Below, piece after piece: positions 14,709-63,640 of a DNA stretch of 64,000 bases; the first letter of the stretch is position 1, and every line of letters begins with the position of its first letter. The stretch is taken from NCBI RefSeq assembly GCF_009914755.1, contig NC_060939.1; one strand, given 5' to 3'. The DNA is from the human T2T-CHM13v2.0 reference genome, Homo sapiens. The notes below the pieces were generated by a model. That model did no database searches, was not told the origin of the DNA, and saw only the letters and a list, made by a program, of their open reading frames with translations. The position numbers were made by a program, and so were the translations under genes.

Positions 14709-15013
<305 letters not shown>

Positions 15014-21000: not shown

Positions 21001-21289
21001 TAATTGGGGGCAAACGCTATTTGTTCTAAGGGTCTCTGGAACAGCTGATCAGTAAATTCCCACATGGTTTCTACCCAACAGGGTATGGGGAGTTGAAGGG
21101 AGGGTAGCCCCAGTGCAGGTGGGCTTGCCCTAATTGATGTGTTCACCATTTCTCATTAAAGTCATTTATGACATGGGAAACAGAGAACGGTCCCTTGTCT
21201 CTACAAAAACCCAGTTAAAGTAATTAAAAGGAATCTTTACTCAACAGAATATTTGAAAGCAGATTACATTTTCAGTTTGTTATGCTTAC

Positions 21290-22010
21290 AAGTGGCTGAG
21301 GAGGGGAGGCTCTCTGATGTTCCACTCTTCAGAACTGGGATCAGCACCACTGTTGAAAGTCAGGAAGCCCTTAACTGCTGGAATGGAAACTGTCCATGAT
21401 GCCCAAGTTCAGTGGAGACAAAATCCATGGCTTGCTTGATATTAATCCCAAGTTCCACATGAAAGCTGTTATCAGCGGTCCTGAGAAATCAGCAGGTGGG
21501 GCAGGCGGGGAAGTCAGGGAGCTTTTCCACATGCTAGGATATGATTTAAGTAATGAGATTACTTCTGAACAAGCACCCTGGAGGTGACAAGCTTTTTAAG
21601 GATGGATAAATAATGTGTTTGCTAAAGAGCTCTCTTTTCACACTCTTGACAGTACTATAGGAAGCAGTCATTTTCTCACACTGTGGGAACTATCCTGAAA
21701 ATGATGGCCCCAGAAGTGACAAAGTTGCCCAAACAGTTCAGCTGAATTCAGAGTATCATTGCCCAATTTTATGGGAGCCCTAGCTTTGCTCACATAGAAC
21801 CAGACATTTATTTAAAGGTAATGTTTTCCACCAACAAATGCTTAATGGGCAAGGCAGAGTATCTTTATCACCACAGCAGAATCAAAAGTGCACATTCCTG
21901 GAAGAAGCGTGTCTGTACAGCTTATTAATAAACAGCATTGGCTCTAGAGAGCCTGCTCTTCAACACCACCCCCTCTACCTAACCTTGGGAATATCTGAAA
22001 TGGAAAAAAT
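21290..22010 (-). other. CYP19A1: Probable untranslated exon I.2 region
   Basis: About 13 kb upstream of the ATG in non-repetitive sequence; donor CTT|GTAAGC at 21290/21289. Partly from recollection of I.2 primer sequences; 5' boundary uncertain. Confidence 0.35.
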
Positions 22011-25000
22011 AAGGACAAATTCTTCAGCAGGCTTAGCTGTACAATCTTTAGGTCTTATGGAAACTATACAAGATTCCTTTTACAAAGAAACTCAAACCAG
22101 GTTTAACAGCCTATATTTAAGAAGCTTCCATTTCTGCGGAAATCTGAGGGCAGCCAATGGTTATTCAGCCCACTGCTATGACCTGAGAATTGGGGAATTG
22201 GTGGATGTATGACAGGAAGATATACACCCTGACACCTACCCCATGAGTGTAGCAGGGGAGAGGTGGGAGTGGGGGTCCTGCACAAGTCATTCTGGGGTCA
22301 CCGCTAAACATTCTGATCTGCAAAGGCCAATAAAATGCTGTTAAAATGGCAAGTGGTAAATACCAAATATACCATTTAATAGACCTGTAACCTTGGCTGG
22401 GCAAGTGACTTAACCTCCCTAAGCCTCACATTCTATAACCGGGTAATGGAAGTAGCACCTGCCTCCCAAGGTTGCTGCAAGGATTTTAGAGCTCATTTCC
22501 ATAAAACACCTAACACAAAGGCAAACACATGTTTGCTCCTCAGTAAGTGATAGCTAATGTTAATGGCAGAATCATATCCTTCAAAAACAAAGCGATCATA
22601 CCCTTCAAAAAACAAAGCAATCAGGAAGAAGAAAAATATCCCACTGAGATCTATGCTTTGAAGAAAGAGGTGTAGTCAGATGATGGGTGGGCAGTGGGTA
22701 AGGAATCATGGGCAAGTCTGCCTAAGACTGTCCCAATTTATGCCTGTTGTCCTGGCACCATTATTAATTGCACCCCCTCCAATCTTAAGTGTCTCCTTTT
22801 GGATAATAAATTGTATGGTCACCTAATTACATGTGAGTGGCAAGGGTGCTTTAGGCAGCAGCCTCCCCCTTTCTCTCTGCCTGCAGCATCAATACTGCCC
22901 TCGTTGCTGCTGGTAAGAATGAGCACAGCTACCTTTTATTGAGTGCCAAACTTCACCTTATTATATCTAAACCTCACAATCAGACCCATGAAGTAGATTC
23001 TATTCTCATATCCACTTTACAGATGTGGCTTGGCAATATTAGGTAACTTGCCCAAGAGTTCATATTCCACCAAGTAACCAAGTGTAAACCTTGTGGTCAT
23101 GGCCCCAATTCACTACACTTCTGGGTTGGAAGTAATAGCAGGCCTAGGTAGGCCCTCCAGGCTGGGGCAGGACACAGGAAGGTGAAGGGTAGTGATTCGG
23201 TAAGGACAAGAAGAGCCATTCTGGGATTTTCCCTTAGCAATCAAACTGGTCTCCCACAACCTCGAGGGCCCAGACCACAAACAGCCCTAGGAAGGGTGAA
23301 GCTCACAGGACTGTGGGCTCTTGGGTTGGCAGCCAAGAGGAGCTTTGCCTCCATGTCATGGCGTAAGGAATCCAAACAGGCCTTGGCTTCCTGGACATTG
23401 TGCTCCAGCACCTGAGCCCAGGTCTCCAGGATCAATCCCACACAGCGCTGCTTCCATTGCAATGCTTTCCTCCAAATGTTATTTCAAAGTGCTGAGCCAC
23501 TTAAAAACAGCAACAACACATGAAGGTCAAGTTTTTTTTTCCCCTAACTTTTCAAGGTGGCCTGTGGAACATAATAACTTTTAATTTTTGGATCCTAGTG
23601 CTACTTGCAGATCACAATGGGCATTTTGTGTGTGCAAATGTGTACATACTGGTAAATGTACATGCATGCATATACTTCTATGCATGTATTATCACAATAA
23701 TAGCTAACACTTATTAAGTGCTTACTCTGTGCTAGGCACTATTCTAAGCACCTTTTAGCCAATAGTCTTATTTAATCCTCATATTGACTCTGTGAGTTAG
23801 CTGTTACCAATGAAGTCCAGAATAGAAGCAACTTGCTCAAGGTCATCCAGGGATTGAGTGGTAAAACAGGACTCAGAACTAGGCTCTGTCCCTTTGACTG
23901 CCTCTTGCTTTCTTTTCTCCCCTCTCCTTTGTGCTGGGCAGATAACATTATATTTATACCCTACCTACTTGCAAAGGACCGGAGGCAGTAGGTAAGACTC
24001 TGGGATGCTGCCAGTGGCTGTAACCATTTTCTCTCCTTTTAGTTTGGGTTGCACACTTCCAAATCACAGTTCCTAGCCCACAGCACTTGTTGTTCTCTCC
24101 AGCCTGCCGACACCTCTCCTACCATTGCTCTCCTTCATTGTATATGACTACATTTGGCATTTGGTATATATCCTTGGTGACATTTCTAGCATATCTTTAT
24201 TCCAACAAAGCCCAAGTGCTTGTTTAATTTTAATGCATGCGACTTGACTCTCCTATAAACTATCCTGTATGTGCCTCAGCCTCGTTCCAGCAGGACTCCT
24301 ACTAGCCAATGCTGCACATTTATGTGTTCTAGAAGAGCCTCTGCCTTCAGGAGGATCCACTTTGGAAAAGGCCCTCCTTCAGCAGAGCTTGGACTGGAGT
24401 CCAGGCCCCCTGCTCCACATTCCTTCCCCCATCTATTCCCTCCCATCTCCAACCCCTGCGCCAGTCTCTGGAAGAACTAACAGAGGTGTACGATATGTAC
24501 CTATTGCCTGAAATTCTAAGGTAAGGTCTGTTGAAATTATTACAAAGATTTACAAAAATGAAGGAGTCTTTTAGAGAAGACTTTTCTTTTTAACATGTAA
24601 ATCTGATTTATTTAATTTGAAGAGTTTAAATCCAAAAAAATGGGGAGCCAGCAATACCCAAGGAACCAAAGTTGACCAAAGTGAATGCCACTAATGACAC
24701 ATTCGACAAAAGCTTGAGAAAGTGGGAAAGTCTTAGGAAGCTGGAGGTTCAGTGTTGCCCCCATCCCTCCACCATCATTGACAAACTGTGGCAGTTTAGG
24801 CAAATCAGGAAATCTCTCTCCCAGTCCCAGAATGAGCATGTGTAAAATGAGACTAATGATCCTTGCCCTCCCGCCATTCAGGATATGATACGTCATTACA
24901 GGAGACAACAAGTAGGAAAGGACTGAGAGAATTGTGAAGTACTGGGTAGAGTTGGGACTTACTGTGATTATTATCACCAAGGACATCTGTCTAGTAATCA

Positions 25001-26358
25001 TCAAAGCCCAAAATATTTTTTTTCCTTGAAAAATAATGGTGTATCCGTTACACACAGTGATCAGTTCCTGGCATACACTACATTTATAAATAATTGTAAC
25101 AACCACATTATTCTGTCTATATGCAAGAAAACATGGTATAATGAAAGAACCCAGAGAGAAACCAGATTGTTTTCAATTCTCCAGTTTCAAGGGGGATTTG
25201 GGGGAGTGAATCGGACACTGCACCTAGCTTCCTTTGGCTCAAGTCAACCAGCTCTTTTGCCAAGGAAGACTTTGTAAGCTTTTCTTGTTGAGTTGCCATA
25301 GGTTGGATGAGGTGGCTAAGGAAGGGTCAGGGGAAGGGAGGGTGAAGATGGCATAGTCTTATCAGGGCTGAAGAAACCAGGCATGGTAAGACAGTTCTCT
25401 AAATGCAAACGGTAAACCTTGGAGCTAGCCTTCCTCAACATCTTTAACAATGAGTCCAAAGAAGGTGCTAGGGCTGCACCAGACTGATATTCTTCAGAGG
25501 TAGAGAGAAATGCTAGACAGATGGGGAGAAGCCACAGAAAGCCAGTATGAGTGGGCAGAGAAAAGACAAAGATAGGTGACACATTTTGTGAAAAAATTGC
25601 CCCAAATTACATTTATGATTCATCCATTTACCAGCTTTCCTAGAACCCTGAACACCAAAAAAGTGCAATGCATGGTGTTAGGATTCCAGTATTGGGGAGA
25701 GAAGGACAGGTAAGAAGAACACTAAATGAATATTGTTTTTGCCTTTAATGATACATCTAGAGAGAAAGACATGAACACAGATAAAAACAGCAAAGCTTTA
25801 TGTGATAAAATGCCGCAGGAAAGGCATATGCCAATTATCAAAGTAGACCAGTGAAGGGCAACAGGAATCAGCAACTGTCTCCCAGTGAGGCAATCTTTCT
25901 TGTCTGGTGGAATCACTAGGATTTTGCTGAAACTAGATGGTGGCATGCTCTAGGTGATGATATACGACACAGATTCAGATGTATTTTGAGTGTTTTCCCA
26001 GAAATACTGGTCCTAAAGGGCTGCTGAAGCCTTAGTGATGTTGGGAAATTTTTGGAAAAGCATTAAATGTGAAGTCAGGGGAAAGCATTAAATATAAGAA
26101 AGCCTATAGAAGCTAACCCACAGCATATCTGAGGTAAACCATGCTATCATATGCATCCATTGTGACTAAAAACGTCTGGTTCCTTTTAAAAGGCTAAAGC
26201 AGGCCCACACAGATAGCTTGGAAAGAGGTTAATTGGAACCAGCTGAGACGGACTGAGATTACCACGGGTTTTCGGGATATTGAGTCATTTAGAAGTCAGA
26301 GGTGGTGTCTCAGGCTATCCCAAAGTTAAGAGATTGTTTACTTCAAAATCAAAGGAAG

Positions 26359-27145
26359 TGAGAGACAGAACTAGATGGATTTCCTAGGCCGACTAAGAAT
26401 TCCTAAGCCTAGCTGGGGAAGGTGACCGCACCTACCTTTAAACACAGGGCTTGTAACTCAGCTCACACCCGGCCAATCAGGTAGTAAAGAGGGCTCACTA
26501 AAATACAAATTGGGCTAAAAGCAGGAGGTAAAGAAATAGTCAAATCATATATTGCCTGAGAGCACAGAGGGAGGGACAATGATCAGGCTATAAACCCCAG
26601 GCATTCGAGCCAGGTGTGGGCAACCCTGTTTGGGTCCTCTCTCCTTGTATGGGAGCCCTGTTTTCACTCTATTAAATCTTGCAACTGCACACTCTTCTGG
26701 TCCGTGTTTGTTCTGGCTCGAGCTGAGCTTTCATTCACAGTCCACCACTGCTGAATGCCACCATCACAGACCCACCATTGACTCCCACCTCTCCGGATCC
26801 AGCAGGGTGTCCACTGACCTTCTGATCCAGCGAGGTGCCCATCGCCACTCCTGATCGGGCTAGAGGCTCGCCATTGTTCCTGCATGGCTAAGTGCTCAGG
26901 TTCAGCCTAATCGAGCTGAACACTAGTTGCTGGGTTCCACGGTTCTCTTCCATGACCCACGGCTTCTAATAGAGCTATAACACTCACCGCATGGCCCAAG
27001 GTTCCATTCCTTGGAATCTGTGAGGCCAAGAACCCCAGGTCAGAGAACAAAAGGCTTGCCACCATCTTGGGAGTGGCCCACAACCATCTTGGGAGTGGCC
27101 AACCACCATCTTGGGAGCTCTAAGAACAAAGACCCACCCGTAACA
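26359..27145 (+). mobile_element. Solo LTR17 (HERV-W LTR), 787 bp
   Basis: TGAGAGACAG...CCCGTAACA termini; CCAAT, TATAAA and ATTAAA signals; repeated CACCATCTTGGGAG in U5; 4-bp TSD GAAG at 26355-26358 and 27146-27149. Confidence 0.9.
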
Positions 27146-27721
27146 GAAGGAGCAGGCCAATGTCATCCAAGACCTTGCAGTTCTATAATCTTATCAGAGA
27201 AATGAGTAATGGGTATTATTAACACGACCTACCAAAACTTCATAAAAAAGCAAAAAGAGGAAGATAATGCTTTTGGTCAGTTAATACTAACTGCAAGTCA
27301 AGGAAATAAAGAAAGCAAGTGTGTTTCTTCAAATGTATGGGTTTTTTAGCCATTTCATTACAGATGGCACAATGCCTTGATATAGCTAACTGCATAAGCA
27401 CTCGTGTTGCATACAACTGGAAATAAAACTGACCACTTGACAAGTGCTGTGGGGGTAAAGAGAACAGAAAGAGTTACTTTCGCGGGGTAGTCAAGGAGAG
27501 TTTCAGAGAGGTCATGGTGGAGGAATAGAATTCCAAGGAGAGAAGTGTGGGGCAGGTCCTCCCAGGGAGTAAGAATAGCATGCAAGTGAGGGCCCATTGG
27601 AGAGGCTGATGGGTGAAGCAGTAGAGTCTTCAGGTTCTGGGCCACTTCTCACTGCCCACCATCTCTCCCCCAATCAATTGTTATTTCATCTCTGAAAGTC
27701 CCTCCTTTCCCCTTTCCTCTC

Positions 27722-28211
27722 TGTTGGGAACAGGCCCCCAAATCTGGCCATAAACTGGCCCCAAAACTGGCCATAAACAAAATCTCTGCAGCATTGTGAC
27801 ATGTTGGTCATGGCCATAATGCCCATGCTGAAGGTTGTGGGTTTACTGAAATGAGGGCAAGGAACACCTGGCCCACCCAGGGCAGAAAACCACTTAAAGG
27901 CGTTCCTAAGCCACAAACAATAGTATGAGCGATCTGTGCCTTAAGGACATGTTCCTGCTGCAGATAACTAGCCAGAGCCCATCCCTTTGTTTCTGTAAGG
28001 AATACTTTTAGTAAATCTATATTCTATAGAAACAATACTTATCACTGGCTTGCTGTCAATAAATATGTGGGTAAATCTCTGTTCAGGGCTCTCAGCTCTG
28101 AAGGCTGTGAGACCCCTGATTTCCCACTCCACATGCTATATTTCTGTGTGTGTGTCTTTAATTCCTCTAGCGCACTGGGTTAGGGTCTCCCCAGCTGAGG
28201 TGGTCTCAGCA
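27722..28211 (+). mobile_element. Solo MER9 LTR (HERV-K9/HML-3), 490 bp
   Basis: TGTTGGGAACAGGCCCCCAAATCTGGCCATAAACTGG start, AATAAA, ...GGTCTCAGCA end; TSD CTCTC. Confidence 0.88.
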
Positions 28212-28599
28212 CTCTCTATTCTCAAGGCCATCCATGAGCTTTCATCAGCCCTCTCTTGAAACAGAATCACAACAAATAACCCTGACCCTATTCTCTCCTC
28301 CTACCAATTTTTCTTCCTTACTGCTGACAGTTAGTCTTCCAAAATCTATAGAGTTTGCCATGTCATGCCTGGACTCACAGACTTGAGGCCTCCTCACTCC
28401 CCCAGTGCTAGGGTTATTAATATACGATTTCCCCATTTCTGGCAAAAGAAACTACTTGACTTCCTGTTCTGCAATAAAGAAAATATAGTTGCACACTTAA
28501 ATTTGGAGAAAAGGCTGCAGTGACATGTCCTAGCTCTTAGAAAATTTCATGATACTTGCTTTGGCCTTTGGCAGACAGAGCATGAACCCATTGGGTAGG

Positions 28600-30330
28600 A
28601 ATTGACATTGAAGCTGACTCAACAGATTATGGAAGTGGTGAATAAAAAAAAGACAATGCTTGCACTCCTGGAGCCTATAGTCTAGGAGGGGAGACAAGCA
28701 AAATATAGATAATCACCCAAATAAGTACTTAATTTCAGTTCTGTAATGGAAAAGTTAAGATTTCAAGAAAGATTAAACCAGGGACCTAAATTTGGCCACT
28801 GTAGAGATGGTATTTAAGGTCTTGAGAGAAGCTGAAATTGCAAGGCAGAATATGTTGTGATATGAACTCCCAAAGAACTCAAGAATTTAGAATTTGGTAG
28901 GAAAAGGAACAGACAAAAAAAAAATCCTCAGAAAGAACTGTCATAAGGTGTAAATAAAACAAACAAAAAACCCCTATTTTATCACTGAAGCGGAAGAGAG
29001 AGTGTTTCAAGAAGGAAGATATGGTTAACTGTATAAAGGGCTGCTGAGTGGTCAAGTCAGATGCAGGCAGAACATTGACATTGGATAAACTGGTGACCAC
29101 GACAAGAGCAGTTTCTGCAATGTGGTGAAGCAGGAAGCCAGAATGGAAAGGAGAGGAGGAGATAAAGTAGAGGCAGTGCCTATGCATAATGGTCAAAAAG
29201 CGTGGCTGTTAAAGGAGAATAGACAGAATGGGTGATAACTTGACAGAGGTGTGGAGTTAGGGAAGTTTTCACTTGCTTGGCTTTGTTTGTGAGGGTGGAT
29301 TCTTGCATATATTTGAGTGCTGAAGGGAAAAATCCAGTAGTGAGGAAGAGGTCAAAGATTTGGAAAAGAGAGGGTATAGCTGACAGAACAAGAGCCCTGA
29401 CCAGGGAGGAAGGCATGAGATCCAGGCACCTGTGGAGGGACTGTACTTTGCTGGAGGCAGTGATGAAAGGAGAGGACAGGAGCAAATCCAATGGACCCAT
29501 CCAATCCTCCCAGGCTGCTGCTCTGGGAATAAAGGGGTTGCAAGCATTCCAACTCTGAGAGGAAGAAATGAGATTGTGATTGTGAACATGGAGGGAGCTT
29601 CTAGAAAAGCACAGTAAACCTGCTAGGCAGTGTGGAGGTCCCAGCTGAGTTTGGAGAGCATGAAGTTGGAGCCATGCCAAAATGCCCAGTTGTGTCACAT
29701 TCTCCAGTAATTCTGATCTGTTCAGGCAACAGGCATGAGTAAATCTGGGAACAACTGAGAGGTCAACAAAGGATTTAGTGGTATTTTTAGGACACTGTAG
29801 GAAGAACCATGGCCTCTGAGCTAGATACAAAAGAAAATGAAGATAGGAGGAGATTTATGGACATAGGCAAAGTGGAGGGACCATTGGCTTGGAAATCTCA
29901 TTGAGGCTGGAGAACTGCTGTAGAGAAGGGACTTGAGCAAGGGAGCTGGAGGGTGGTGGCAAGAGAATGAGATTTCAGAGGAGGCACAGTTTCTGATGAT
30001 GACAGGTTCACCGCTGTGTCCATGTGAGTGTGCTGAGGTGAAAGGGCAAATAACATCACTGACGGTGCAGTCATCATGGAACTGGGTAGTCAGGGCATTG
30101 GTTGGATCAGCCACAAGGACATTCAGTTACTTAGAATGATGGCAGGAGTCGGGGGGGAGGGTAAGACCCCGAGAAAGATACCAAAGCCTTTGGTTAGTAG
30201 GGGAGACAGGGTGAATTGGTGGATAGTGTGAAGTGAACCTTACAGGAGATTTCAGTCTTTTAGAAGGAAAGAGTAACGACGGTCAAGGGACAGCAGTGAG
30301 TTGCCTGGAAGACACTAACACCAGCTCCCA
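28600..30330 (-). mobile_element. LINE-2 fragment(s)
   Basis: Minus-strand ORF remnants resemble L2 ORF2 (FTSAHSHGHS..VIIRNCASSEIS; HSGFLLHHIAETALVVVT); L2 3' end near 28660-28730. Confidence 0.7.
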
Positions 30331-33059
30331 GCACTGAAATTATAGAATTTATTATTGAAAACGCAGGGCAGAAGGAAAAAATGGAGTCTTCAGGGGCCAG
30401 CCCCAATATAGTGAAGAGAAAGAGTTGGAAGGATCACCGGGGAACAAGAAGAGTTGGATGCAGCTGGGGAAACAGGGAATAGGAACTGGGGTGGGGTGCA
30501 GGCAGAAAGTAGTAGCAGTCCCTTGGTTACAGCCGTGGCACACCTCTCAGTGAAGTCTGATGTTACTTGATATCCTCAAATGAGTCCAATCAGTATCAGT
30601 TTGGATACTTCATAGAGATCAAGACCACCCCCAAATTAGGATAGATGTGCTTTCCAGGTCATGGTTTCTGACACTCTGAAGGTTCTTCAATGTATGTCAC
30701 TTCAAAGTGCACAGATGTTAAATTATACAAAACCAATGTAGGGTTGGGTCACCAGCTTTACAAAAATAACACATAAGTAATCAGACATTTGAGCCAATTA
30801 CACTTTCTTATGTTACATAAATCCTATTTCACCCACTTTTCCAGTCTCATCCCCTGCCACTTGCCCTGCGCTCCATGCAGCTCTATCAAACTGGGCCTAA
30901 CTTCCCAAGCACACTGCCCCGTTTGGGCCTCCAAGGCTATGTGTGTGGCATTCCTCCACCCAGTATAGCCTGCCATTCTGGATCCCACCTCCCCTGGCTG
31001 CGGGCAGGTCAGACAGCGTTCCATGTCCTCCCTTCCCTCTGAGATGTTGACCTGTTTGCCCTTTACTCCCTCCCCACATTAAGTCAGCTGAGCATTTTTC
31101 ATTGCCTAAGGGAAGCAGAAAGCAGATGGAAAAAATAAATATTTTGAGTTTCAAAATCCAGATCCCATAAAAGTTAGGCAAGGATTGGCCACAATATTGG
31201 CTTGAACAAAAGGGATGGGGACAGATAGAAAGTCTCCTCAGCCCGGAGGGAGGAAGACAGGCTGAGGGAGGCGGGGTGCTCCTGTTAGGGCTCTCTGTGG
31301 GAACCCAGGCAAAAGTGCATTGCTCTCAGATTTCCCAGTCCTGACTGCAGTTTCCTATCATTCACCCACTCGACCTGCTCACCTGTCTTCTTTTGGCTTA
31401 TACTGAGTTTTACATTTGCTTTCGTTGTCTTTATTTAAAATTTTGGATATCTTAAAGTCCAGATTACAGGCCTCTTTTAAGAAAAAAATCAGATCTGGCT
31501 CTAGAGGAATCACATTACCTTGTGGCAACAACCAGCTGTCCCCAAGCAAGGACTGCCCTCTTTCCACAGGGCAGGGGCTCTCCGCTCTCCTCAGTGCCAA
31601 CCGTTCCCCCACAGTTTATTATACTCTGGTCGTTATCTGCCTGCCCTTTTTAGCTGTTTGAGCTTCATTCGGATCCCTGGATGCCCACTGAGCCAGTCAG
31701 GCTACAGGCTAGAGGATATGCCTGGTCTGGATAAATCTAGTGATAGCTCCAGAAACATAGCAAATCTAGCTTCCGCCAACCTTGAGGGAAATGGCTGGCT
31801 TCCTTTGCACAAAGGTAAAAGAAGCTTCTGTTCTCTCCCAAAGTCTCCCCAGCTGTGCAGCCCAGAGCCAACTGAGGAAAGATTTTGCTCTCACCTCACA
31901 AAAAGCTTCCAGATCCAATCAACCCTACTCTGCCAGGCTGGGAGAAGAGCAAAGAGAAATGAACACATGAGGATGTGTGCCTACAAATCACATTATATAC
32001 ATGACACATTCCTCTCCTTGCAAGGCACTTGCATCTCCACGGACAGAGCAGGGCAAGCACTGGAGCATCCTAAGAGGTTAAACTATGTACCCAAGGTCCC
32101 ACAGCTAATTAGTGACAGAGTTTGGAGCCCAGGCCACCTGTCTCTCATTCCAACCAGTGCCCCCTAAAGATGCGATTGCTTCGTCCTGCCTATGGAAGGA
32201 GGACTGAGTGGGAAGCCTCCCCTGTGGCAGGAAGAGAAGCACCTCCCTCCTCATCTAGACGAAGGTGGACAAGCTTCTGCCAGTCCTTCTTCAAACCTCG
32301 GAGTCAAGGATTCCTGCACAATTTCTATCAGGCCCTAAGCCTTTTAGTGGAACTTTCCAAGTTTATTTTTATTTTGAAATTCCATGGGTTTACTTCATTT
32401 GTAGCACATGTTTCCTAAAAACAGCTCATCTCTGCTCTTGCCCTTTTAGTATAAGCTCTCGAAAGCAGCCCCGGACCGTGTGAGAAAGCTGGAGGCAAAG
32501 AGCTGACAAATCACGGAGGTCCCCTAATCTGTGGAAGGCCCCAGGGCAGGGCACGGAAAGCCTTCCCTGGTCTGGTCTTCCCTTCCGCTCTTTTGGTGCC
32601 GTTGAGTCGTTGTCTGACTAGAGGAGCTTTCATTCTGGAAGGGAAGGCATTGCCAGTGAGCTTTACACATTTTACTATGCTCTCCACGATGTGACTGTTG
32701 TCATGGTTACTTTTTTCACCAAATTGAGACCCTCAGCCTTATTCCACACTGGAGAGGAAGTCAAAGAACAGGGCAGTCTGCATCCAGAAGAAAATCTGAG
32801 GTGGGCAGGAACTTTCCCTGCTTCTACCCAGACACATTCCCTGCTCTGGAGAGCAAAGCTGCCCTCCCGTTTCCTGCTTTTCATGACAAAGATTGGGTCT
32901 CTGTCACTCCCAAGCAGGGCGAATCGAGCCAGATTTTTGTTGGACGCTTTCAGGAGCAAAACCAGCTCCTCGTATTGTGTCCCATTCACAGCTGGAGCAG
33001 CTCGGGCACTAGGCGAGGCAGGGGGTGCGGCGAGCGGTCTCCAGCCGGCTGCCTGCGGT

Positions 33060-33591
33060 CGGTGCCGCCCACAGAATCTGCGCGGCCCAGTGCAAAATAA
33101 AAACGCGGGGCCCCGCGTTCAAAAAGTAGGAAAAAGCCTTTCCCTTTCTCCCGTGGTCTTTCTGTCCACCTGTCTCGGCAGGGTTTATTTGCTAGTTAAG
33201 TTGCGCTGGCTTGAGCACAGGGACGCTGGCGGGCCAAAGGACGACCCTCACAGGCGACCCAGCGTGGCGGCGAGGTCCCTTGGCTGTACGCCGAGGTCTG
33301 CGCCGCCCCCACGTCCGTGGCCGGCCACTGCCCAGGGCGGAGGGCAGCGGTGTTCGCCGGGTGGGGGCCCAGAACCTGTCCCAGGAAGACGCAGGAGACG
33401 CGACCGGGGTGAGACAAGACTCCAAGCTCTCAAGCATCCACTGTGTTATTGCACTTCACTTACAATACACGAATTTGAAGGAAAAATGATTCAGAATTTC
33501 ATATGGTGACTGCAGAGCATTCATTAGATTCCAAGCGGGACCCCTTCTGAGCGCGGGACCCTATGGCGGATTGCCATTGAAACCAGCCCTG
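33060..33591 (-). mobile_element. MER45-family (hAT-Tip100) DNA transposon at the core of a CpG-rich island (~32980-33720)
   Basis: Minus strand begins CAGGGCTGGTTTCA..GGGTCCCGCGCTCAGAAGGGG..AATGCTCTGCAGTCACC..GAAATTCT and ends GGGGCCCCGCGTTTTTATTTTGCACTGGGCCGCGCAGATTCTGTGGGCGG, matching MER45 termini. CpG density is far above the flanks. Confidence 0.75.
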
Positions 33592-33879
33592 CCGGCTCCC
33601 CATGCCCCGGGGAAGGGTCTTCCCTGTGCCCACCCCAGTTTAGCAGGCGAGAGCACTGGAAGGAGCCTGAACGCCACAACTGGTTGGCACTAGGCATTGC
33701 TCCGCCTTCGCCCCTCCCCACCCTGGGGAAGAAGCAGATACTAAGTAGATAAATATGAAAGCAAAGTACCATATCACTTTCCCCTAGGTTTCCTCCAGAG
33801 CACGTGTCAAATCTTTTTACTGTAGAGGTGGGGTTGCTTTCCTTCCATCAGACCCACCCTCCCCCATCCCATTTAAAGG

Positions 33880-36110
33880 ACTTCGCCAAAGCATAAGTAA
33901 CATGCAATAAACCTCAAATATTTAAAGTGTACTATTTTATGAGCTCTAACATATACACATGCACTTGTGAAACCATTACAAAATCAAGGTGGCATTTAAT
34001 TTCCATCACCCACTTGTCACCCATCCTTCCTCCACACCCATCCCCTGATAACCACTGATTTGCTCCCTGTCATTATTGATCAGTTCGTGCTTTCTGGAAT
34101 TCTATTGTCATAATCAAACAGTCTGTACTCTTTTTCATCTGGCTTCTTTTACTTAGCATATTGATTTTGAGTTTCATTCTTATTGTTCATATCAATAGTT
34201 TGTTCCTTAACATTGCTGAGCAGTACTCAATTGCATAGCTATGCCACAGTTTACCCATTCACTTCTTAAGGAGCATTTCCATCGTTTCCTTCCCCCCCCT
34301 TTTTTTTTGGCTGTTTCAAGCAAGGCTATGATGGATGTCAGTGCACAAGTCTTTGTGTGGACATATATTTCACTTCTCTTGAGTAAAAATCTAACAGTGG
34401 CTGTATAGCAGGTGTATATTTAACTTTTTAAGAAACTGCCAAATTATCTTCCGAGGTTCCACTGCATTCCCATCAGCAGTATATGAGAGTTACAGTTGCT
34501 TCACATTCTCAGTCTTTGAATTTTAGCCATTCTAGAGGTATCTGATTGCGATCTTAATTTGCATTTTCCTGATTATTAATAATTTTGAGCATTTTCAAAT
34601 GAACTTACTGGCCATTCATATATCTTTTATGAAGCATCTGGCCAAATCTTTTTTCCCATTTAAAAAAATGGGGTTGTCTTATTGACTTTTTAAATATATA
34701 TATATTCTGGATTCGAGTTGTCTGATACGTGTTGTTTTGAATACTTTATCTTAGTCTGTGCTCTGCTTTATTTTCTTTGTGTCTATTGAGGATTAAGTTT
34801 TAAATTTTTGATCAAGTTTGTCAAGTGTCTTTATGGCTCCTACTTTTTTTGTGTTCTGAGAGACCTTTGTCTACTCCAAGGTCACCTCCTCTTTTCTTCG
34901 GTAAGTGTAATAGTTTTAGGTTTTATATGTAGGTCTATGATCCATTTTGAGTTAAATTTTGTATATGGTATGAGGTAAGGGTTAATAGGGTTATTATTTT
35001 TTCTTTCTTATGGATATATCCAGCACCGTTTTTTTGAAAAGGCCCTTTTTCCCCCTCAAATTGAATTGTCTTAGTACTTTTATTAAAAATTGGCAATATA
35101 TGCATGGGTCTATTTCTGGATTTTCTGTTCTGTTCCATTAATCTATATGTTTATTTTTTGCCAACACAAAACTATTTTGATTACTATAGCTATAGTAGGT
35201 CTTGAAATATAAAAGCAAGATTAGTAAATTGGAGGATGAGCTCTCCAACTTGGTTCTTTTTTTTTTAAATTACTTTATGGGGTTGCCATGGAGGTGGACT
35301 GCTCAAATCTCCTTAAAACAACAACAACTACCACTACTACTACTATTTGGAGCATAGTTGACAGTTCCACCCTATGGATTCACCACCATGTTCACAGAAA
35401 GGCCATATTTCTCTGGGTAGCTCCTAAACAATGACAAGCATGCTAAGGGTACTAGTGGTAGCCCATTCCAGCCAAGGCAGGACTCTTCCAACAGGCAATC
35501 TTTGCTTGGGGGTTCCCTACTGCTGACTGAAACTGTCTCAGAGCTATACTGTTGTCTGAAGCCCTTTCCACACAACTCACCCTTCCCTCTCTTCTTTCAC
35601 AGATTCCAGACTACACTGGGGACTGAAAGCTTTTTGGCCTACTCCCGTTCCCTCCCTTTTTATCTTTCCCAGTCATTTGCCCCTGTAAACCTCTTGTATG
35701 TTTAATGCAGTCTTGCCAACTGCTTCTTAAAGGTTCCTAACAAACACACACTGAAATTCTACCCCAAAAAGTCTGCTGAAATGAAATTTTAAATGGAAGT
35801 TTACTGGCTCTATAGATCAATACAGCCAATTATCCACGAACGTGATATATCTCACCATATATTTAGGTCCTTTACAATTTCTCTCAGTAATGTTTTGTAA
35901 TTTCTGGTGTAGAGGTCTTAGACATCTTTCTTTAGATTTATTCCTAAGTATTCTTTGGTTTTTTTTTTTTGGTACTACTGTGTTGAAATTGTTTTAAAAT
36001 TTTTATGTTCCAGTTGACTGCTGAGAGTATATAAGAATACAATTGGATTTTGTATGCTAACCTTGTATCCTGAACTGAAACCTTGCTGAATTCATTACTA
36101 GTCCCAGTAG
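33880..36110 (-). mobile_element. Old L1M 3' region, interrupted by LTR16C
   Basis: Antisense L1 3'UTR/ORF2 motifs (TAAGAAACTGCCAAA..TTCC; TCTATTTCTGGATTTTCTGTTCTGTTCCATT), resuming after 35750. Confidence 0.75.
35277..35750 (+). mobile_element. LTR16C-like (ERVL) solo LTR
   Basis: GGAGGTGGACTGCTCAAATCTCC..., CAGGCAATCTTTGCT, ACTGTCTCAGAGCT, ...AAACACA end. Confidence 0.65.
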
Positions 36111-38741
36111 TTTGGTCTCTGCTTCCTCCCCTACCGCCTTAAGCAAAAGCTTTTGGGGGATCCCGGTGCTCTGGTAAAACTGGGATGTGGGTAGCTGGAG
36201 CTCCTCCAATCAGTATCCCTATCCCTACCTGGAACCCCTTCACCCTAAAAACAGCTTCTAGAAGTTGCTGAAGAAATCTCATACTCCAAGTAACACAGTA
36301 TAACCAGCCACTGTTCTAGGGAAATTGGTATTTACTGAACACCTCCCCCATATTTTATAGGCATCTTATCTCATTTGAGTCTTTAAAATTAAAAAAGGAA
36401 ACCACTGTGTGAGATAAGTAGAAGTAGCTCCATTTTAAAGATGAAGAAGTAGAGATTAAATCTCTTTGACAGGGTCTCAACAGTTGGTTTCTTTCTGAGG
36501 AAAGACCAAAATCCATCCGTCTGACTCTAGAGTTCATGCTCTTTCCTCCCACCGCAAGCTGACTATCCCCAGGCTACACAGGCAGACAGATTCCAAAATG
36601 GGTTTCTGCTGAGGCCCAAGTCTTTAGACCGACTGTCTTGTGTTCATTCAGCACGTGGCCCTGTGGGTCTGGAGGCCTGACTAGGCTCTGGGATTCCACC
36701 CCCACAACAACTGCCACCCAGTCTGGTTTCCTAGGTTCCTGTTCCTCCCAAATTGCTTTCTGAGGGTATCAGTGGCCTCCCTCTCACCCTGTCTGATGAA
36801 CTATGTGCAAGTCTAAGCATTTTTTTTTTTACTTCTCTGCTGCCTTTGCAGAGAACGTCTCCTTGGAACCACGTGGCTCAGTTTGTTTCTGGTTCTCTTC
36901 TCACATCTCTGTTCACTTCTTATTCATACTCTGTCCTGATTCTTTTTTATCGCCCTCTTCTTAATCACCCAGGTCATACAGTCTGTGGTCTCCAGATCTT
37001 CTGTTCTGTCCCTCTCTCATTCTTAGAGATGCTCTTTCAAGCACCTGTGGGAGCAATACCCCTCTAACCAGGCCTGCGAGTCACCTAAAGTTCTGACTAC
37101 CCAGTTAACCCTAATGTACCCATAAAAAATTATAACACCTTGAAATTTCTAATAGTTTAGCATCCAAATGATGTTTTCCAGATCGTTCCCCTGTCTTCCT
37201 GTACTCTCAGAAGAGTACATCTTTTCTGAGACCCAACGTGTCTTGATTTATAGTTTGGGTGACATATTTAACATCTCCAAGGAATACTCTCACTTGGGTG
37301 GACAATTTACAAGATCTAAACCTTGTTGACAAACTAGCTCCACCACAGTTCTACCTAACCAGGTAGCTAAGCCTTAGACTTCTCTTTAGTTCTAGGGATC
37401 CCACCATCCTTTTGGTTTTCTTTCCTTCTTCTCTTCTCCCATATCTACTCACTGAGTCAAGCCCATTGTTTTCTCTGAATTAGTCTGAGGTCAGGCTGTA
37501 TCCTCTGTGGCTACTGCCACTCTTTGATTGATTAGTCCAAGGATTTCCAAAGACTGATCTTCTAGTTCATATTATCCCCCCATCAGGGTCAATGTTACTT
37601 TGACAAAAATCTTTTCCTCTGGCACTTTTTACATAATAGGTGTTCACAATCTGGTGATATTAAAAAGCCAGCAGTGTTTGCATCAGCAGATTTTGTACCA
37701 GTTCTTCGTTATCTGTTCACTACATCCAAACTCCTTTGCTTGGTTTTTAGGATTTTCTACTATTGTCCTATATCACCAAGTTCATTGTTTATATTGTGCC
37801 TCAATGTGGAACTCCTTCATCCAAGAGAGAAACACCAGGCTGGCTGACACTTTTGCACAACCCAGCACTCTCTCATCCATGCTTGTGCCCATTGTATTCT
37901 ACACACCGTGAGTGCCAATTTTCTGTCCATCTTCGATTTTTCCCTTCAGTTTTAACCTCAGCCATATCTTTTCCTATCCTCGTATTTCTTCTCCAACCCT
38001 TCCCAACCTTCAAGATACGTGTTCCTGAGTAAATCTCTTGTGTGCTATTAGACTAGCCCCAAAGAGCAGAAGTTCTCAAATGTAACTGGAAATGAGCTTC
38101 ATTAGGCTATGAGCTTCTTCAAGACAAGGATCATGTCTTATTTAACTTTATAGCACCAGCATCTAGACCAGTGCCAGGTACATCGTTTGAGTGCAATAAA
38201 ATATACATTTTATAAACAAACACCACTCTATGGTGTTGGCCTCATTGGCAGAAGAGTTTGAGCTTCCTCATCTGGAAAATGGTGCTCAGAATATCGACAT
38301 CATAGGTAGTGAACACTAAATAAGAAAAGCTACATGAAGGTCTTAGCACAGAACCTGGCACAGAGAACTGTATATTAATGAGTTCGTACCTTCACATTAT
38401 GTTTTTAGAACTGTCATCAGAATTGCAGAGTTCCTATAATTGCTCCTCTACAGCAGGGTAGTTTTGCTAGAGCCTCCTCTAGAGTAGTACCAAACTCATG
38501 TATGAAGTTTGTAATTATTATAGGGGAAAAAACTGGCCCAGCAGGAGAAAAATCCACAAGGACCACTGCTTACAATGCCCCTGGTTATGATTTTTGGTGT
38601 GGAGTTTGGCTGTGACAGTTGAGATAGACAGATATGCAGATATACACTGATTCGTCTTTTTCAGGGATTCCATAAATGCATACTCGGTTAGGACAACAGG
38701 CTTCATAATGGGAGGGACCATTTTTCCATTTCTTTCCTCAC

Positions 38742-39024
38742 TTTTTTTTTTGAGATGGAGTTTCACTCTTTCGCCCAGGCTAGAGTGCAGTGGCATGATC
38801 TCGGCTCACTGCAACCTCCGCCCTTCTGGTTTCAAGCAGTTCTCCTGCCTCAGCCTCCTGAGTAGCTGGGACTACAGGTGCACGTTACCACACCCAGCTA
38901 ATTTTTGTAGAGACAGGGTTTCACCATGTTGGCCAGGCTGGTCTCGAACTCTGGACCTCCTGATCCACCCACCTCGGCCTCCCAAAATGCTGGGATTACA
39001 AGCATGAGCCACCACACCCGACCC
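38742..39024 (-). mobile_element. AluS
   Basis: Alu dimer; TSD TTCCTCACTTTTT on both sides. Confidence 0.92.
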
Positions 39025-39498
39025 CCTTCCTCACTTTTTATACAGGAGAGAAACTATATGATCAATAGGCAGAATAGTGTTTGGACACTCTGATGTGTTC
39101 ATTTTAACACTGAACCTTACATGTTTATATTCAGCAGGCAAAATAAAAATTTTTAATCCAGGGAAGCAGTTAGTTAAATCACTCTCATAGATTTAATAAC
39201 TTTCATAGTTTTGGAGTGGCAGTTATCCCTAATCTAACTATGCCTTTAGTTTTTCTATCTGTAAAATAAGGGTAATAGTCTACTCTCACCCTCTTCTTAG
39301 GAATAGCAACTATTATGGTACAGAGGAAAGAGCACTGGAATGGGAGTCAAGAGAACTGAGCTCTATCCCACCTTTGCCTAGCTGCACAGCCCTTGGGAAA
39401 ATCACTTCAACTCAGGCCCCTCACCTCCGAGAAGTCCAAACTAAGCAACCTCTAAGTCAGTTCCCAGAGTAAGAATGCTATGCTTTTTAAAAAATGAC

Positions 39499-39961
<463 letters not shown>

Positions 39962-42900
39962 TCAAGCAGGGTGAACATGTCTGTTTGGAGACAAGGACCC
40001 TAGGGAAGTAGAGGCATGAAGATTACTTGCACAAGGATTATTACCGATTTTTGTACAAAAATTGAACCTATTACTGGGCATTCTTTTCAGACTTCCTGAG
40101 CTGCCCATCAGCCCTCTGACTCATGACTAGAGGAATTACCCATAGATATCCCTGAGTGGGGAGGGAATGGAAAAAGAAATGGGAGGTTGCCTCTTATGCC
40201 TCTTGGGAGCGTTATTCCCTCCTCTGAGGATGAACTGAAGTGTAACAGGTGAAGAGCTCTCTTCGTATTCACTTGATGGTCATGCCAAATGCAAGGCAGA
40301 CCACCTCAGAATCTGTATCTGCCTACAAATACCATCATATTTCCCAGTTGTATGAAAGAGCCACAGTGTTTCTAGCCAAAAGACTTGAGTTTAAATCCCA
40401 CCTACATGAACTGTCTGGCTTTAGGCACGATGCTCCAGGTGTCTGAGTGATGGAAGGATCACAAGAAATAGAGATGCACAGAGTGTTTATTCTAGGACTG
40501 GCTACAGCCTCCCTGGCCCTCGCTCCTGTATACATCATCTCCTGCCCAAATACTATTTAGAAGAAGATTTTTTTTTAATAAACTCTCTAAGATTGATCCC
40601 TTTGTCAGGGGTATTTGAAGAAGAAAGAAGGGGCAACACCATAAGCCAGAGGGGACAGCATACCGAAATCCTGCAACGCTGGGGAGAAAGCTCTGCTTTC
40701 TCTATTGTCATCTCACCCCCACTCTCAGGCCTGCCCCAGCCACACCTGGGCTCTCCCTCCTTCACCTTAACTTGGTGACATGTCACTTGGCCCATTCTGG
40801 ATTTGGCTTCCGCTCCGCTTGTGGTTTGGCTTCCACTCTGCTTGTGCAGTCCCTAACTGTTGTGGCCCGTGTCAGGGTGGGAGGGGACATCCAGGAAGCC
40901 CTGTTCTCAGAACTGTTCACACAGAAAGGGAACCTCAAAGAGTCCTACCCCACTTCACTTGGGATGTGCATCATGGCAAGAAATGGTGCCATGGCCTGTG
41001 GCCACCACGGCCACAGCCTAAATGAGCACCCACCTCTGGCTCATAGCCAATGGCAGCCTTGAAAACACAGGACCTGAGTCACTCCACCCAACAGAACCAG
41101 TGGTTAAGGAGTCTCTTCTGTGAAAAGATGCCTAAATCTTCACCTCCAGCCCTACTCAGAGCTTTTGCTTTACTAAGACCAGAGGGATTATTTAGTGTCA
41201 GTTTTAAATTGCTACTTGTGCCATTCTGACACAAGGAAAATGCACAGGCTTGGGAGTCAGACTGTCCTGGGTTGAAATCCCAACTTTGCCATTTACTGTT
41301 TAGGTAACATCTGGCAAACTGCTGGATCTGGCTTAGGCATGTGTGAAATGGGGACACGGAGACTTCTGGACAGTTGCTGTAAAGGTTAAGCAAAACTGCA
41401 CGTTGTAAATTGCCCAGTCCTCGTCAAGCACCTAACTCAAGAGTGACTGCTCACATTTTTTTTTCTTGTTTCCTTCTCACCAGAGAAAGACTAAATTATC
41501 CCAAGTATGGTTTATTTATAAGAGTTCAAAAATTCTGCTGAAAGGCCAACCATGTAGTTATTGAACAAGTTCCTGCCTGATTGTTTCCGTTCAGGTAGTA
41601 AAGTGTCCAAAGTAAATGGATTCATTCGTAACATAGATCGCCCCTACAGCAGGACTGCTTGACAGTGTGCCTGCTAGCTGCTGTGTCCCCCCGGCCAGCC
41701 CCACACCAGATTCCAGCCTGAGGTTTGAAGGAAAAGGGCCGTCAAGTTTGTCTAGGACTTTTAGACGCTAAATGAAGATTATGATGGAAACTGTCCTTCA
41801 CAAAATTAAAACTATCCTTTTTCCTAGGAAGCTCTCACTGATAGAGAGGCTTGTTTTGATTTCCAGATTTATATTGAGACCATTTATATGCAGGCATGTG
41901 TGTGAATGTAAGTGCGTGTCTCAGAAATAACTAATCCTAACACAGCAGAATGATTTGGCTTAGTCTATAGCAGCCAGTCTAATCAGAGTATTTCATAGTC
42001 TATCTCACATCTTGCAGGAGTTTGTCCATCTTCGTCAGATGGCTCATTATGCCAGCCAAAATGACAAGCTCTACAGGCCCACTGACCCCCTTGTTTCCTC
42101 ATGTATAGATAAAACTCAGAACACATGAACTCGAAAGACACAGTGACTCGATTTGCAAAGTCCCAAAGAACCACTGCAAAAACTTAGCTGCCACTTGCAA
42201 TATAAATGTTACCATACCTTTGCTTTCATGTTAACTACCCTTCATATTTTAGGAAACTACAGTACAGTTAAAACTGAAAACATATCCAGACATAGCAAAC
42301 ACAAGTTACATCTTGTAATTATTTATGCAAGTTCCTTAACTTTAAAGCCACAAACCATTTCTACAGTAATTACCACACTGCAAGTACATACAATTTTAGT
42401 TCTGAAGGACAAACCTATATGCTTCTCTGTGATTTCATAGTGCATTGCTTTAAAAAATTTCTGCAATTCAATCTAAAACACCCAACTTTCTAACTTCAAG
42501 CAAAGTCTCCACAAAAATGAATTCTTCCTGCCTGAAGTCGGTAGCAGTAACAGAAATACAAGTCATAAGCAGCTTTTAAAATCAAACGTAATCATAATGT
42601 GCTATTGAGGTGCCTTTGCTTAGAGGAGCAACTGTAAGTCCCAAAATTTGTGGGATTGTGTTGGTTTTGAATGCCCTGACCCATTACCAAGCTTTGTATT
42701 CAGACAAAGCATCCCATTTTCTGGTTCCAAGAGAATGTCAGCATACAGTTCAATTTAAAGAGGTATTTGCACCTCTGAAAGGGCACAAAAAAAAAGAGAG
42801 AGAGAGAAAGAGAAAGAAAGAAAAAAGAAATAAAGAAAGAAAAAGAGAGAAAGTGGTACAAGCAGTTCTTATAAAAAATAAAACTATGTGTCACTATTTC

Positions 42901-43778
42901 AACTTGTCTTTATTGAAACTGCAATTTTCTAGTCTGTTTTCTTAGATCTGCAGTATCTCTGTGTAACACTGTTTCCAAGCTCAATTAGGAGGATTTTTAT
43001 TTCATCCCCATAAAATATCTCCTTTTTTATGCCCTTTGAGTGCCCCAAGTGGGTTTATAATTACGCAATCTTTATTGAAGGAGTACAGATGAAGTAACAA
43101 TTCTCATTTCTAATTCCAATTTTCTGGAAAGACATTTAAGTCTTCAATCCCTGGGTACCTGAAAAAAGCAAACAAGGTACAGATGCCTGTAATTTTTCCT
43201 ATTTTTAGTTTTGGAACGAATCTTTTCTTACGGCAATGAAAGCAAATGAAAAAACCAGTCCTTGAACACTTGCAACAAAAGACTATCACTTTCTACTGGA
43301 ATTGACATTGGATTAAAAAGCTAAAGTTTGAAAGTAAAATTATTTTGCTACTCTTTAAATATTTAAGCAGTATGAAAATAAATTAGAAAATAAATACGCG
43401 TATTTCCCTAATAGTGCACACCACTTGGGTGACATTCTGTATACTCCTATTTTTGCCATGATGTGGATTTTTTTCCCATCAAATGAAAACCTACAGAAAT
43501 AAATTCTGAAACAGATAGATTGTTCCCCTCCTTCCATTCTCATGCCAATGAAATATTTCAAGTGAACTGTTTTCTGATCACAAATATCACGTTTTTTTAA
43601 AAAAATCAAAAAGCAGTTATTTAAAAGAATACATACTATTATTAAAAGTTAGTCAAGACCAACTAATAAGACCTCAAAAATGAACATATTTCAAAGAATT
43701 TTGTTCTCTTCAATAGTTGCATGAGTTTTTTTTTTTTTTTTTTTTTTCCCCAGGAAAATGTGCAAATATCAAGGTTAC

Positions 43779-43875
43779 CTGGGTCTGCTGGTCACTTCTA
43801 GTTTTTGGACTCTTGAAGATGGTGAGTTTTGCTAATGATGCGCGGCTGTTTAAGAACCAGGTGGCTTTTCTGGCA
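43779..43875 (-). other. CYP19A1: Untranslated brain-specific exon I.f
   Basis: Recognisable I.f sequence ...CAGCCGCGCATCATTAGCAAAACTCACCATCTTCAAGAGTCC...GACCCAG; donor CAG|GTAACC at 43779/43778; TATA box about 25 nt upstream of the inferred start. Confidence 0.85.
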
Positions 43876-44080
43876 ATCACTCTTCGTGTGCCATCTTTTA
43901 TAAAGGTGCTTCTTGTTGCTAAGAGATCAGTTGCTTAGAGACCAAACCATTAAAAAAATATATATGTCAGGGGCCAACATAAATTATAGCCAAATTTTGT
44001 CATTTCAGCTCGCCCCCTGAATGTTTGGCTTTTGTAATAGATCGTAGCGTACCAAGAGAAGCTAATTACTAATCACAAAT
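43876..44080 (-). promoter_or_regulatory. CYP19A1: Brain promoter I.f
   Basis: TATAAAA at 43902-43896; DR1-like TGGCCCCTGACA (COUP-TF type) at 43976-43965; homeodomain site TAATTA at 44063-44068. Confidence 0.75.
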
Positions 44081-47762: not shown

Positions 47763-47932
47763 AGAATAAACCAAATAAAGAGAAATAAACCAAGCTTGCC
47801 CCTTGTTGGTTCCCTCTCTGAATTCTGAAAAATCCTTGTCACAGTCCACAGGGACCTCTGGAATGAGAAGAACTGAGACAGAGAGGCTGGAGTAAAGGAG
47901 CAGCAGACCTCCAGACACATGATGATAGTTAC

Positions 47933-50395: not shown

Positions 50396-50399
50396 GACA

Positions 50400-63587: not shown

Positions 63588-63588
<1 letters not shown>

Positions 63589-63640
<52 letters not shown>
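63589..63640. repeat. (AC)26 microsatellite
   Basis: Uninterrupted dinucleotide run. Confidence 0.95.

What the first reader, a model, noticed from the sequence alone, without database searches (positions are those of the whole stretch)
32590..33720. CpG-retaining ancient MER45 transposon as a candidate germline (piRNA-cluster) promoter inside CYP19A1
Seen: the only non-SVA CpG-island-like stretch in the window coincides with an old hAT transposon that would normally have lost its CpGs. It matches none of the aromatase first exons identified here. MYB-type motifs flank it in opposite orientations (CCGTTG 32599-32604; CAACTG 33677-33682). Recalled knowledge: a piRNA cluster (PIRC66) overlaps this region, a syntenic pachytene cluster lies at mouse Cyp19a1, and such clusters use A-MYB-bound, often bidirectional promoters. 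Inference: long-term germline hypomethylation preserved the CpGs because the element serves as that promoter. The 6-bp motifs alone are weak evidence.
Basis: partly seen in the sequence, partly recalled or inferred. Interest (0 to 1): 0.75.

Follow-up and report, generated by a model that had tools for sequence, protein, structure and literature searches.

The report
Orphan CpG island on old transposon
An old 530-base DNA-transposon copy in an intron of the human aromatase gene carries a real CpG island that was likely left unmethylated in the germ line and likely acts as an ordinary enhancer-type element; the published start of the piRNA gene here lies about 35 kb away, so this island is not that gene's annotated promoter.

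Summary
The CpG island is real (32920-33720, 55 CpG, o/e 0.75) and overlaps a full-length hAT-type element at 33060-33591 (family shows 11-bp inverted ends and 8-bp target duplication). It holds 38 CpGs against 1-7 in each of 18 sister copies. It is not simple retention: 7 of 30 ancestral CpG sites survive, 16 of 38 present CpGs look newly gained, and the island runs 140 bp into unique flank. The AT-to-GC excess is confined to CpG-prone sites, which fits lost deamination (low germline methylation) better than gene conversion.

The promoter claim fails. The published human pachytene gene pi-CYP19A1 is one minus-strand 54-kb exon starting at window-equivalent 68,872, 35-36 kb from the island. 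The mouse strand switch lifts to the same spot. Three abundant piRNA sites right of the island are minus-strand, the opposite of what a bidirectional promoter at 33 kb predicts. The two MYB hexamers are chance-level (1.45 expected, 2 seen) and lie outside the element.

Best reading: an orphan CpG island with stem-cell enhancer marks inside the piRNA precursor body. No germ-cell methylation or ChIP data for the site were found.

The parts
32920..33720 (.). CpG island (core 32920-33410)
   Evidence: 801 bp, GC 0.60, 55 CpG, o/e 0.75; core o/e 0.87
33060..33591 (.). Full-length ~530-bp non-autonomous hAT-type DNA transposon copy (MER45 family by recall; subfamily not determined)
   Evidence: 35 other genomic matches; aligns end to end with sister copies; 38 CpG vs 1-7 in 18 sisters
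33060..33070 (+). Left terminal inverted repeat, degraded
   Evidence: Family majority of both ends agrees over 11 bases; position from alignment
33581..33591 (-). Right terminal inverted repeat
33052..33059 (+). Left copy of putative 8-bp target-site duplication
   Evidence: 4 of 8 match to the right copy here (weak alone); 34 of 64 across 8 sisters, p=1e-5
33592..33599 (+). Right copy of putative 8-bp target-site duplication
32920..33059 (.). CpG-rich non-repeat left flank, part of the island
   Evidence: 11 CpG, o/e 0.84; no family homology left of ~33050; single copy to 33055
32638..33271 (.). RefSeq functional element 'enhancer'
   Evidence: Hub annotation; its right end equals the start of the hESC H3K4me1 interval. 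That it derives from that study is inferred.
33272..33904 (.). H3K4me1 ChIP interval in human embryonic stem cells
   Evidence: PMC6084406 Data S1 row chr15 51559697-51560330, hg19
32599..32604 (-).
33677..33682 (+).
14391..64000 (-). Body of the single-exon pachytene piRNA gene pi-CYP19A1; continues to its start at window-equivalent 68,872 (G000:C15:49,110,872), outside the window
   Evidence: PMC7782496 supplement: hg19 chr15:51,540,817-51,595,298, minus, 1 exon; conversion
55185..55212 (-). Abundant testis piRNA t0000347, minus strand; coordinate anchor
57800..57827 (-). Abundant testis piRNA t0000352, minus strand; coordinate anchor

Best explanation
This is an orphan CpG island formed over an old hAT-type transposon copy and its flanks, likely because the spot has long been kept unmethylated in the germ line, and it likely works as a distal enhancer-type element; it lies inside the pi-CYP19A1 piRNA precursor, 35-36 kb downstream of that gene's published start. 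Steps: (1) shown: a non-autonomous hAT-type element inserted and diverged about as much as its sisters at non-CpG sites (0.21 vs 0.15-0.28). (2) Shown: about half of its ancestral CpGs decayed; inferred: it was methylated for part of its history (rough model: one third, range 0.14-0.63). (3) Shown: CpG loss then fell and new CpGs accumulated, in the element and 140 bp beyond it, with no significant AT-to-GC bias away from CpG contexts; inferred: germline methylation was lost locally, probably through factor binding at its GC boxes and CpG-reading chromatin proteins (established CpG-island biology, not tested here). (4) Published: H3K4me1 in embryonic stem cells and a RefSeq enhancer call; inferred: it acts as a poised or weak enhancer, target gene unknown. 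(5) Published and checked on sequence: the piRNA precursor starts at a CpG-poor site at window-equivalent 68,872 and would read through the island on the minus strand.
For: CpG 38 vs 1-7 in 18 sisters; ancestral retention 7 of 30 vs 16 of 481, p=1.5e-4; W-to-S excess at CpG-prone sites 23 of 87 vs 160 of 1357, p=3e-4, but not at clean sites, 12 of 84 vs 139 of 1276, p=0.37. The effect is local: o/e of the rest of the precursor body is 0.155-0.168 against 0.18 outside it, and a sister copy about 112 kb away has 3 CpG (L024). No RefSeq TSS or exon at the site (hub annotation). hESC H3K4me1 interval and adjoining RefSeq enhancer (hub). Orphan islands as enhancers and their gain by substitution, transposons or gene conversion are described (PMC12582260; PMC11170920). 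piRNA gene start elsewhere.
Against: No sperm or germ-cell methylation value, testis ChIP or CAGE for this site was found: two methylome supplements gave no row, and both list only differential regions, so they neither support nor refute. The reporter-activity table of the stem-cell study was not seen (zip cut); only the H3K4me1 interval was. No extra conservation at non-CpG sites (0.21, inside the sister range), which fits a functionless island equally well. The clean-site test has low power (84 and 49 sites) and its trend (GC* 0.50 vs 0.37) leans towards GC bias. Ancestral calls come from a majority of 18 diverged copies and are noisy. Over +-2 kb the island scores o/e 0.42, the intermediate class that in mouse includes germline-hypomethylated piRNA promoters. 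No other mammal could be compared.
Confidence: 0.55

Rival explanations
1. The island is a self-sustaining hypomethylated patch with no selected function; enhancer marks are a by-product of unmethylated CpG density.
For: Non-CpG divergence equals that of sisters; no long A-MYB-type or CTCF-type motif in it (motifs recalled); GC-rich inserts can score in reporter assays (own knowledge).
Against: Something had to stop methylation of a previously methylated repeat and its flank; a RefSeq enhancer call and an hESC H3K4me1 interval cover it (hub).
Confidence: 0.15
2. The island is a secondary, internal start site or chromatin booster for the 3' third of pi-CYP19A1 in germ cells.
For: [quoted passage not shown]
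Against: Only one isoform, one exon, is annotated at this locus; no YAACNG hexamer in 33000-33600.
Confidence: 0.12
3. An old recombination hotspot raised GC and CpG content by GC-biased gene conversion.
For: Overall W-to-S rate is 1.8 times that of sisters, p=0.001; clean-site GC* is 0.50 vs 0.37; gene conversion is a proposed source of orphan islands.
Against: The excess is significant only at CpG-prone sites; clean sites give p=0.31-0.50 at three thresholds, and three sisters reach the same clean GC* of 0.50 or more.
Confidence: 0.08
4. The island is an unannotated minor promoter or first exon for aromatase (minus strand) or MIR4713HG (plus strand).
For: CYP19A1 uses many alternative first exons (hub annotation); candidate donors at 33463 and 33251 (minus) and 33409 (plus); many orphan islands are unannotated promoters (recalled; title cited).
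Against: None of 11 CYP19A1 transcripts or the MIR4713HG model has an exon here (hub); the best donor lies in a motif shared with sister copies; donor hexamers are common.
Confidence: 0.06
5. One reading: the element is the main A-MYB-bound, bidirectional promoter of the piRNA cluster.
For: The cluster overlaps the site; low germline methylation is likely; 18 of 100 mouse pachytene promoters are high-CG.
Against: Published start and mouse strand switch are 35-36 kb away; 3 of 3 checked piRNA sites right of the island are minus-strand; no plus-strand human piRNA gene is annotated; hexamers at chance level.
Confidence: 0.04

Closest known systems
Orphan CpG islands with enhancer marks (PMC12582260 and PMC11170920, passages read)
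   Same: Meets island criteria, no annotated TSS or exon, carries H3K4me1 and an enhancer call, and appears to have been gained in place.
   Different: Two thirds of it is an old DNA transposon copy, whereas SINE, LINE and LTR elements are reported rare in orphan islands (DNA transposons not covered in the passages read); it lies inside a pachytene piRNA precursor.
MER45-family non-autonomous hAT transposons (listed under hAT in PMC5753468; 21.4% divergence in PMC1914374)
   Same: 8-bp target duplication, short inverted ends, non-coding, dispersed, about 0.2 divergence from the family majority.
   Different: o/e CpG 0.83 against 0.04-0.23 in 18 sisters. Family and subfamily name not tested against a library.
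Pachytene piRNA gene promoters (pi-CYP19A1; mouse 9-qA5.3-24188 and 9-qA5.3-1495; PMC7782496)
   Same: Same locus; likely low germline methylation, as in the intermediate- and high-CG minority.
   Different: 35-36 kb from the annotated start; no strand switch; no MYB hexamer in the core; high CG whereas the real start is low CG (o/e 0.12).

Membership tests
hAT non-autonomous DNA transposon | 8-bp target-site duplication | tested here: met
   34 of 64 in 8 full-length sisters, p=1e-5, only at length 8; window copy 4 of 8
hAT non-autonomous DNA transposon | Short terminal inverted repeats | tested here: met
   Majority of left end and reverse complement of right end agree over 11 bases; degraded on the left in this copy, and a blind search on this copy alone did not find them
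hAT non-autonomous DNA transposon | Dispersed multicopy family | tested here: met
   35 other matches on many chromosomes; 19 of 63 non-redundant loci cover the subfamily middle
MER45 (and subfamily A/B/C/R) | Best match to the Repbase/Dfam MER45 consensus | not testable with these tools
   No repeat library available; name recalled; divergence compatible with 21.4% in PMC1914374
CpG island | >=200 bp (or 500 bp), GC >0.5-0.55, o/e >0.6-0.65 (thresholds recalled) | tested here: met
   801 bp, GC 0.60, o/e 0.75
Orphan CpG island | No annotated TSS or exon | tested here: met
   Hub RefSeq table and piRNA gene table; FANTOM CAGE not available
Orphan CpG island | Unmethylated in the germ line | tested here: inconclusive
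   Indirect support from substitution pattern; no methylation value found
Enhancer | H3K4me1 and reporter activity | tested here: inconclusive
   hESC H3K4me1 interval seen; RefSeq enhancer call (hub); activity table not seen
Pachytene piRNA gene promoter | Coincides with the precursor's transcription start | tested here: not met
   Start at window-equivalent 68,872
Pachytene piRNA gene promoter (bidirectional) | piRNA strand switches at the site | tested here: not met
   3 of 3 piRNA sites to the right are minus-strand; mouse switch lifts to 68,852-68,977
Pachytene piRNA gene promoter | A-MYB motif beyond chance | tested here: not met
   2 seen, 1.45 expected; no 10-mer match with <=1 mismatch in the finding (motif recalled)
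Pachytene piRNA gene promoter | A-MYB/TCFL5 binding, H3K4me3 and CAGE in testis | not testable with these tools
   No tracks available; the primary human study was not held

The most novel reading that the evidence does not exclude
A methylated hAT transposon relic was converted in place into a germline-unmethylated CpG island that now serves as an internal, A-MYB-independent start site or chromatin booster for the 3' part of the conserved pachytene piRNA gene pi-CYP19A1, and possibly as a germ-cell enhancer of aromatase.
Probability: 0.12. Interest if true: 0.6.

Novelty: new member of a known kind. Interest (0 to 1): 0.22.

Why it matters
As it stands it is a tidy example of a CpG island arising on a once-methylated transposon, where sister copies give an internal clock for the methylation switch. 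It also marks an intronic CYP19A1 element, already flagged as an enhancer, whose target is unknown. The headline claim, a transposon-derived piRNA-cluster promoter, would have mattered more but is contradicted by published coordinates. If the island proved to be an internal germline start site, it would show a route by which long pachytene piRNA precursors gain extra promoters from transposons.

Tried and rejected
Blind inverted-repeat and target-duplication search on the window copy alone: inconclusive, too degraded. Other copies inside the window: none significant. CTCF-type site: 0 of 12 window matches fall in the finding, 13.8 expected by chance (motif recalled). Ten-base A-MYB-type motif: 0 of 8 window matches in the finding; one at the annotated start (68,847-68,856), but such matches are common (3 in 10 kb, 15 of 200 shuffles reach 3), so it is weak support. 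Cluster-wide germline hypomethylation: rejected, precursor body is not CpG-enriched. Gene conversion as main cause: not supported, low power. Bacterial promoter/terminator scan: irrelevant to a human locus. Methylome supplements: PMC7204326 lists only promoter-overlapping sperm-blood regions, no row for CYP19A1 or the five coordinate prefixes tried; PMC11179423 gave 0 of 16 prefix hits on chr15; hg38 positions for both rest on a recalled hg19-hg38 shift. PMC11615739 supplements: no CYP19A1 row, main cluster table too large to read. PMC12615883: not about this site. PMC9808571: no mention of CYP19A1 in the main text. PIRC66 coordinates were not checked. Paper searches for the site (listings only, up to 30 rows each) showed no paper describing this island.

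Full report
1. Observation. The CpG-rich stretch is real. From 32920 to 33720 there are 55 CpGs in 801 bp (GC 0.60, o/e 0.75), with a core at 32920-33410 of o/e 0.87; the window average is 0.21. Outside the SVA, the best 800-bp window holds 53 CpGs and the next best elsewhere 18. The first 330 bp of the finding (32590-32919) are ordinary, with 4 CpGs.

2. The repeat. A search of the window's own genome with 33050-33600 gave 35 other matches. Homology covers about 33055-33595 only; 32300-33055 matched only itself in a search that skips common words. Seven genome searches and one fetch gave 85 loci; 22 were removed as self, duplicates, segmental duplicates or non-family flank. A profile built without the window copy found 19 of the remaining 63 covering the subfamily-specific middle; one (L006, internal insertion) was dropped, leaving 18 sisters. 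The window copy aligns end to end at 33060-33591. In the 8 sisters that reach both ends, the flanks match at 34 of 64 bases for an 8-bp duplication (p=1e-5) and at no other length from 2 to 13 with p<0.05; two of the eight show 0 and 1 of 8, and the window copy 4 of 8. The two ends agree over 11 bases. This is hAT anatomy (established knowledge). The name MER45 is recalled and could not be tested; MER45 families are listed under hAT in PMC5753468 (passages) and at 21.4% divergence in PMC1914374 (one passage), close to the 0.15-0.28 measured here.

3. Retention or gain. The window copy has 38 CpGs (o/e 0.83); the 18 sisters have 1-7 (o/e 0.04-0.23). At strictly called ancestral CpG columns it keeps 7 of 30, against 16 of 481 in sisters (p=1.5e-4); 14 have decayed to TG/CA and 9 changed otherwise. 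Of its 38 CpGs, 7 are strict ancestral, 14 sit on one-sided TG/CA columns (ambiguous), 16 were classed as apparently new and 1 has low coverage; several of the 16 are in noisy columns and one has CG as the commonest sister state. The AT-to-GC rate is raised at CpG-prone sites (23 of 87 vs 160 of 1357, p=3e-4) but not significantly at clean sites (12 of 84 vs 139 of 1276, p=0.37; p=0.31-0.50 over three thresholds). That pattern is what loss of methyl-CpG deamination predicts; gene conversion is not excluded because the clean class is small. A rough two-state model, assuming 20% background divergence per site, puts the methylated share of its history at about 0.34 (0.14-0.63). The island extends 140 bp into non-repeat flank (11 CpG, o/e 0.84), so it is a property of the place, not of the family. 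It is also local: the rest of the piRNA precursor has o/e 0.155-0.168 against 0.18 outside. Non-CpG divergence (0.21) shows no extra constraint.

4. Where the piRNA promoter is. The supplement of PMC7782496 gives human pi-CYP19A1.1 as hg19 chr15:51,540,817-51,595,298, minus strand, one exon of 54,481 nt, pachytene class. Mouse 9-qA5.3-24188.1 lifts to 51,547,208-51,595,278 (minus) and its divergent partner 9-qA5.3-1495.1 to 51,595,403-51,625,392 (plus, 'low expression' in human). In the sorted human table no other row lies at 51.5 Mb (part 8 of 22 read). To convert coordinates I used the six piRNA rows (three sites) of PMC3691314 Table S11. Their reverse complements were found by eye at 55,185, 57,800 and 68,479 in the adjoining stretch, each giving hg19 = window + 51,526,426. 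The same offset makes the RefSeq enhancer's end (33271) equal the start of an hESC H3K4me1 interval (51,559,697), which anchors it at the island itself. The start is therefore at window-equivalent 68,872 and the 3' end at 14,391; the island is 35,152-35,952 bp downstream, inside the precursor. All three piRNA sites lie right of the island and are minus-strand (the table prints '+', but the sequences match the reverse strand and the text calls them sense to CYP19A1). A bidirectional promoter at 33 kb would make them plus-strand. This rests on three high-count sites, not full coverage. The primary human study was not held, so how the start was defined was not read.

5. Promoter features. The annotated start is CpG-poor (o/e 0.12 over +-500 bp, 0.15 over +-2 kb), in line with PMC7782496, where 49 of 100 mouse pachytene promoters are low-CG, 33 intermediate and 18 high (passages). 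Against my reading, the island scores 0.42 over +-2 kb, and intermediate-CG promoters are the class reported as hypomethylated in spermatocytes. Three YAACNG hexamers lie within 68,800-69,000 (0.48 expected per 200 bp) and none within 33,000-33,600. Motifs are recalled. [quoted passage not shown]

6. What it most likely does. With no annotated start or exon, an H3K4me1 interval in ES cells (33272-33904; PMC6084406 passages and supplement rows) and an adjoining RefSeq enhancer (32638-33271), it fits an orphan CpG island with enhancer-type chromatin. That class, and its gain by substitution, transposons or gene conversion, is described in PMC12582260 and PMC11170920 (passages). Target gene and germline methylation state are untested: two methylome supplements listing differential regions had no row for it (PMC7204326; PMC11179423). 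Searches (listings only) showed no paper on this island; most subscription papers are outside the library.

7. Verdict. Observation partly confirmed; piRNA-promoter interpretation contradicted on position and strand; germline-hypomethylation inference likely right. New member of a known kind, interest 0.22. The boldest reading left open, an internal germline start site or booster, has about 12% odds.

Noticed in passing
L065:4847-4977 (window-equivalent 68,847-68,977; G000:C15:49,110,847-49,110,977): The published pi-CYP19A1 start region: CpG-poor, with three MYB-type hexamers in 200 bp including a palindromic pair at 68,888-68,897, between the minus-strand start and the lifted start of the mouse plus-strand partner.
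   Followed up: partly
hg19 chr15:51,595,403-51,625,392 (window-equivalent 68,977-98,966): The mouse locus is bidirectional but the human plus-strand arm is listed as 'low expression' (41 vs 22,419 for the minus arm in the table's piRNA column), suggesting one arm was lost or silenced in human.
   Followed up: no
window 59288-60798: SVA insertion with a 16-bp target-site duplication; the constant hg19 offset on both sides shows it is also in hg19. The last MIR4713HG exon (59385-59683) lies inside it, and the element sits within the piRNA precursor (hub annotation).
   Followed up: partly
window 21290-21561, 43779-43931, 47933-48033, 54021-54109: Four alternative CYP19A1 exons lie inside the same-strand single-exon piRNA precursor (14,391-68,872), so aromatase promoters are read through in spermatocytes; interference or shared use was not examined.
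   Followed up: no
window 43754-43931: MIR4713HG exon 43754-43821 (plus) overlaps CYP19A1 alternative exon 43779-43931 (minus) antisense (hub annotation).
   Followed up: no
L024:1492-2055 (G000:C15:49,187,543-49,188,106): A second full-length copy of the same subfamily about 112 kb away, within the GLDN span, has only 3 CpGs; a useful local control.
   Followed up: yes
L047-L051 and L053 (five places on C9, one on C2): Six loci with identical match coordinates and identity, apparently segmental duplicates carrying one copy of the element; counted once.
   Followed up: partly
window 33101-33120: Perfect 18-20-bp palindrome inside the element's left end; most sisters show a decayed version.
   Followed up: no
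window 46562-46775: Weak match (E=0.013) to the element's GC-rich middle on the same strand; probably compositional.
   Followed up: no
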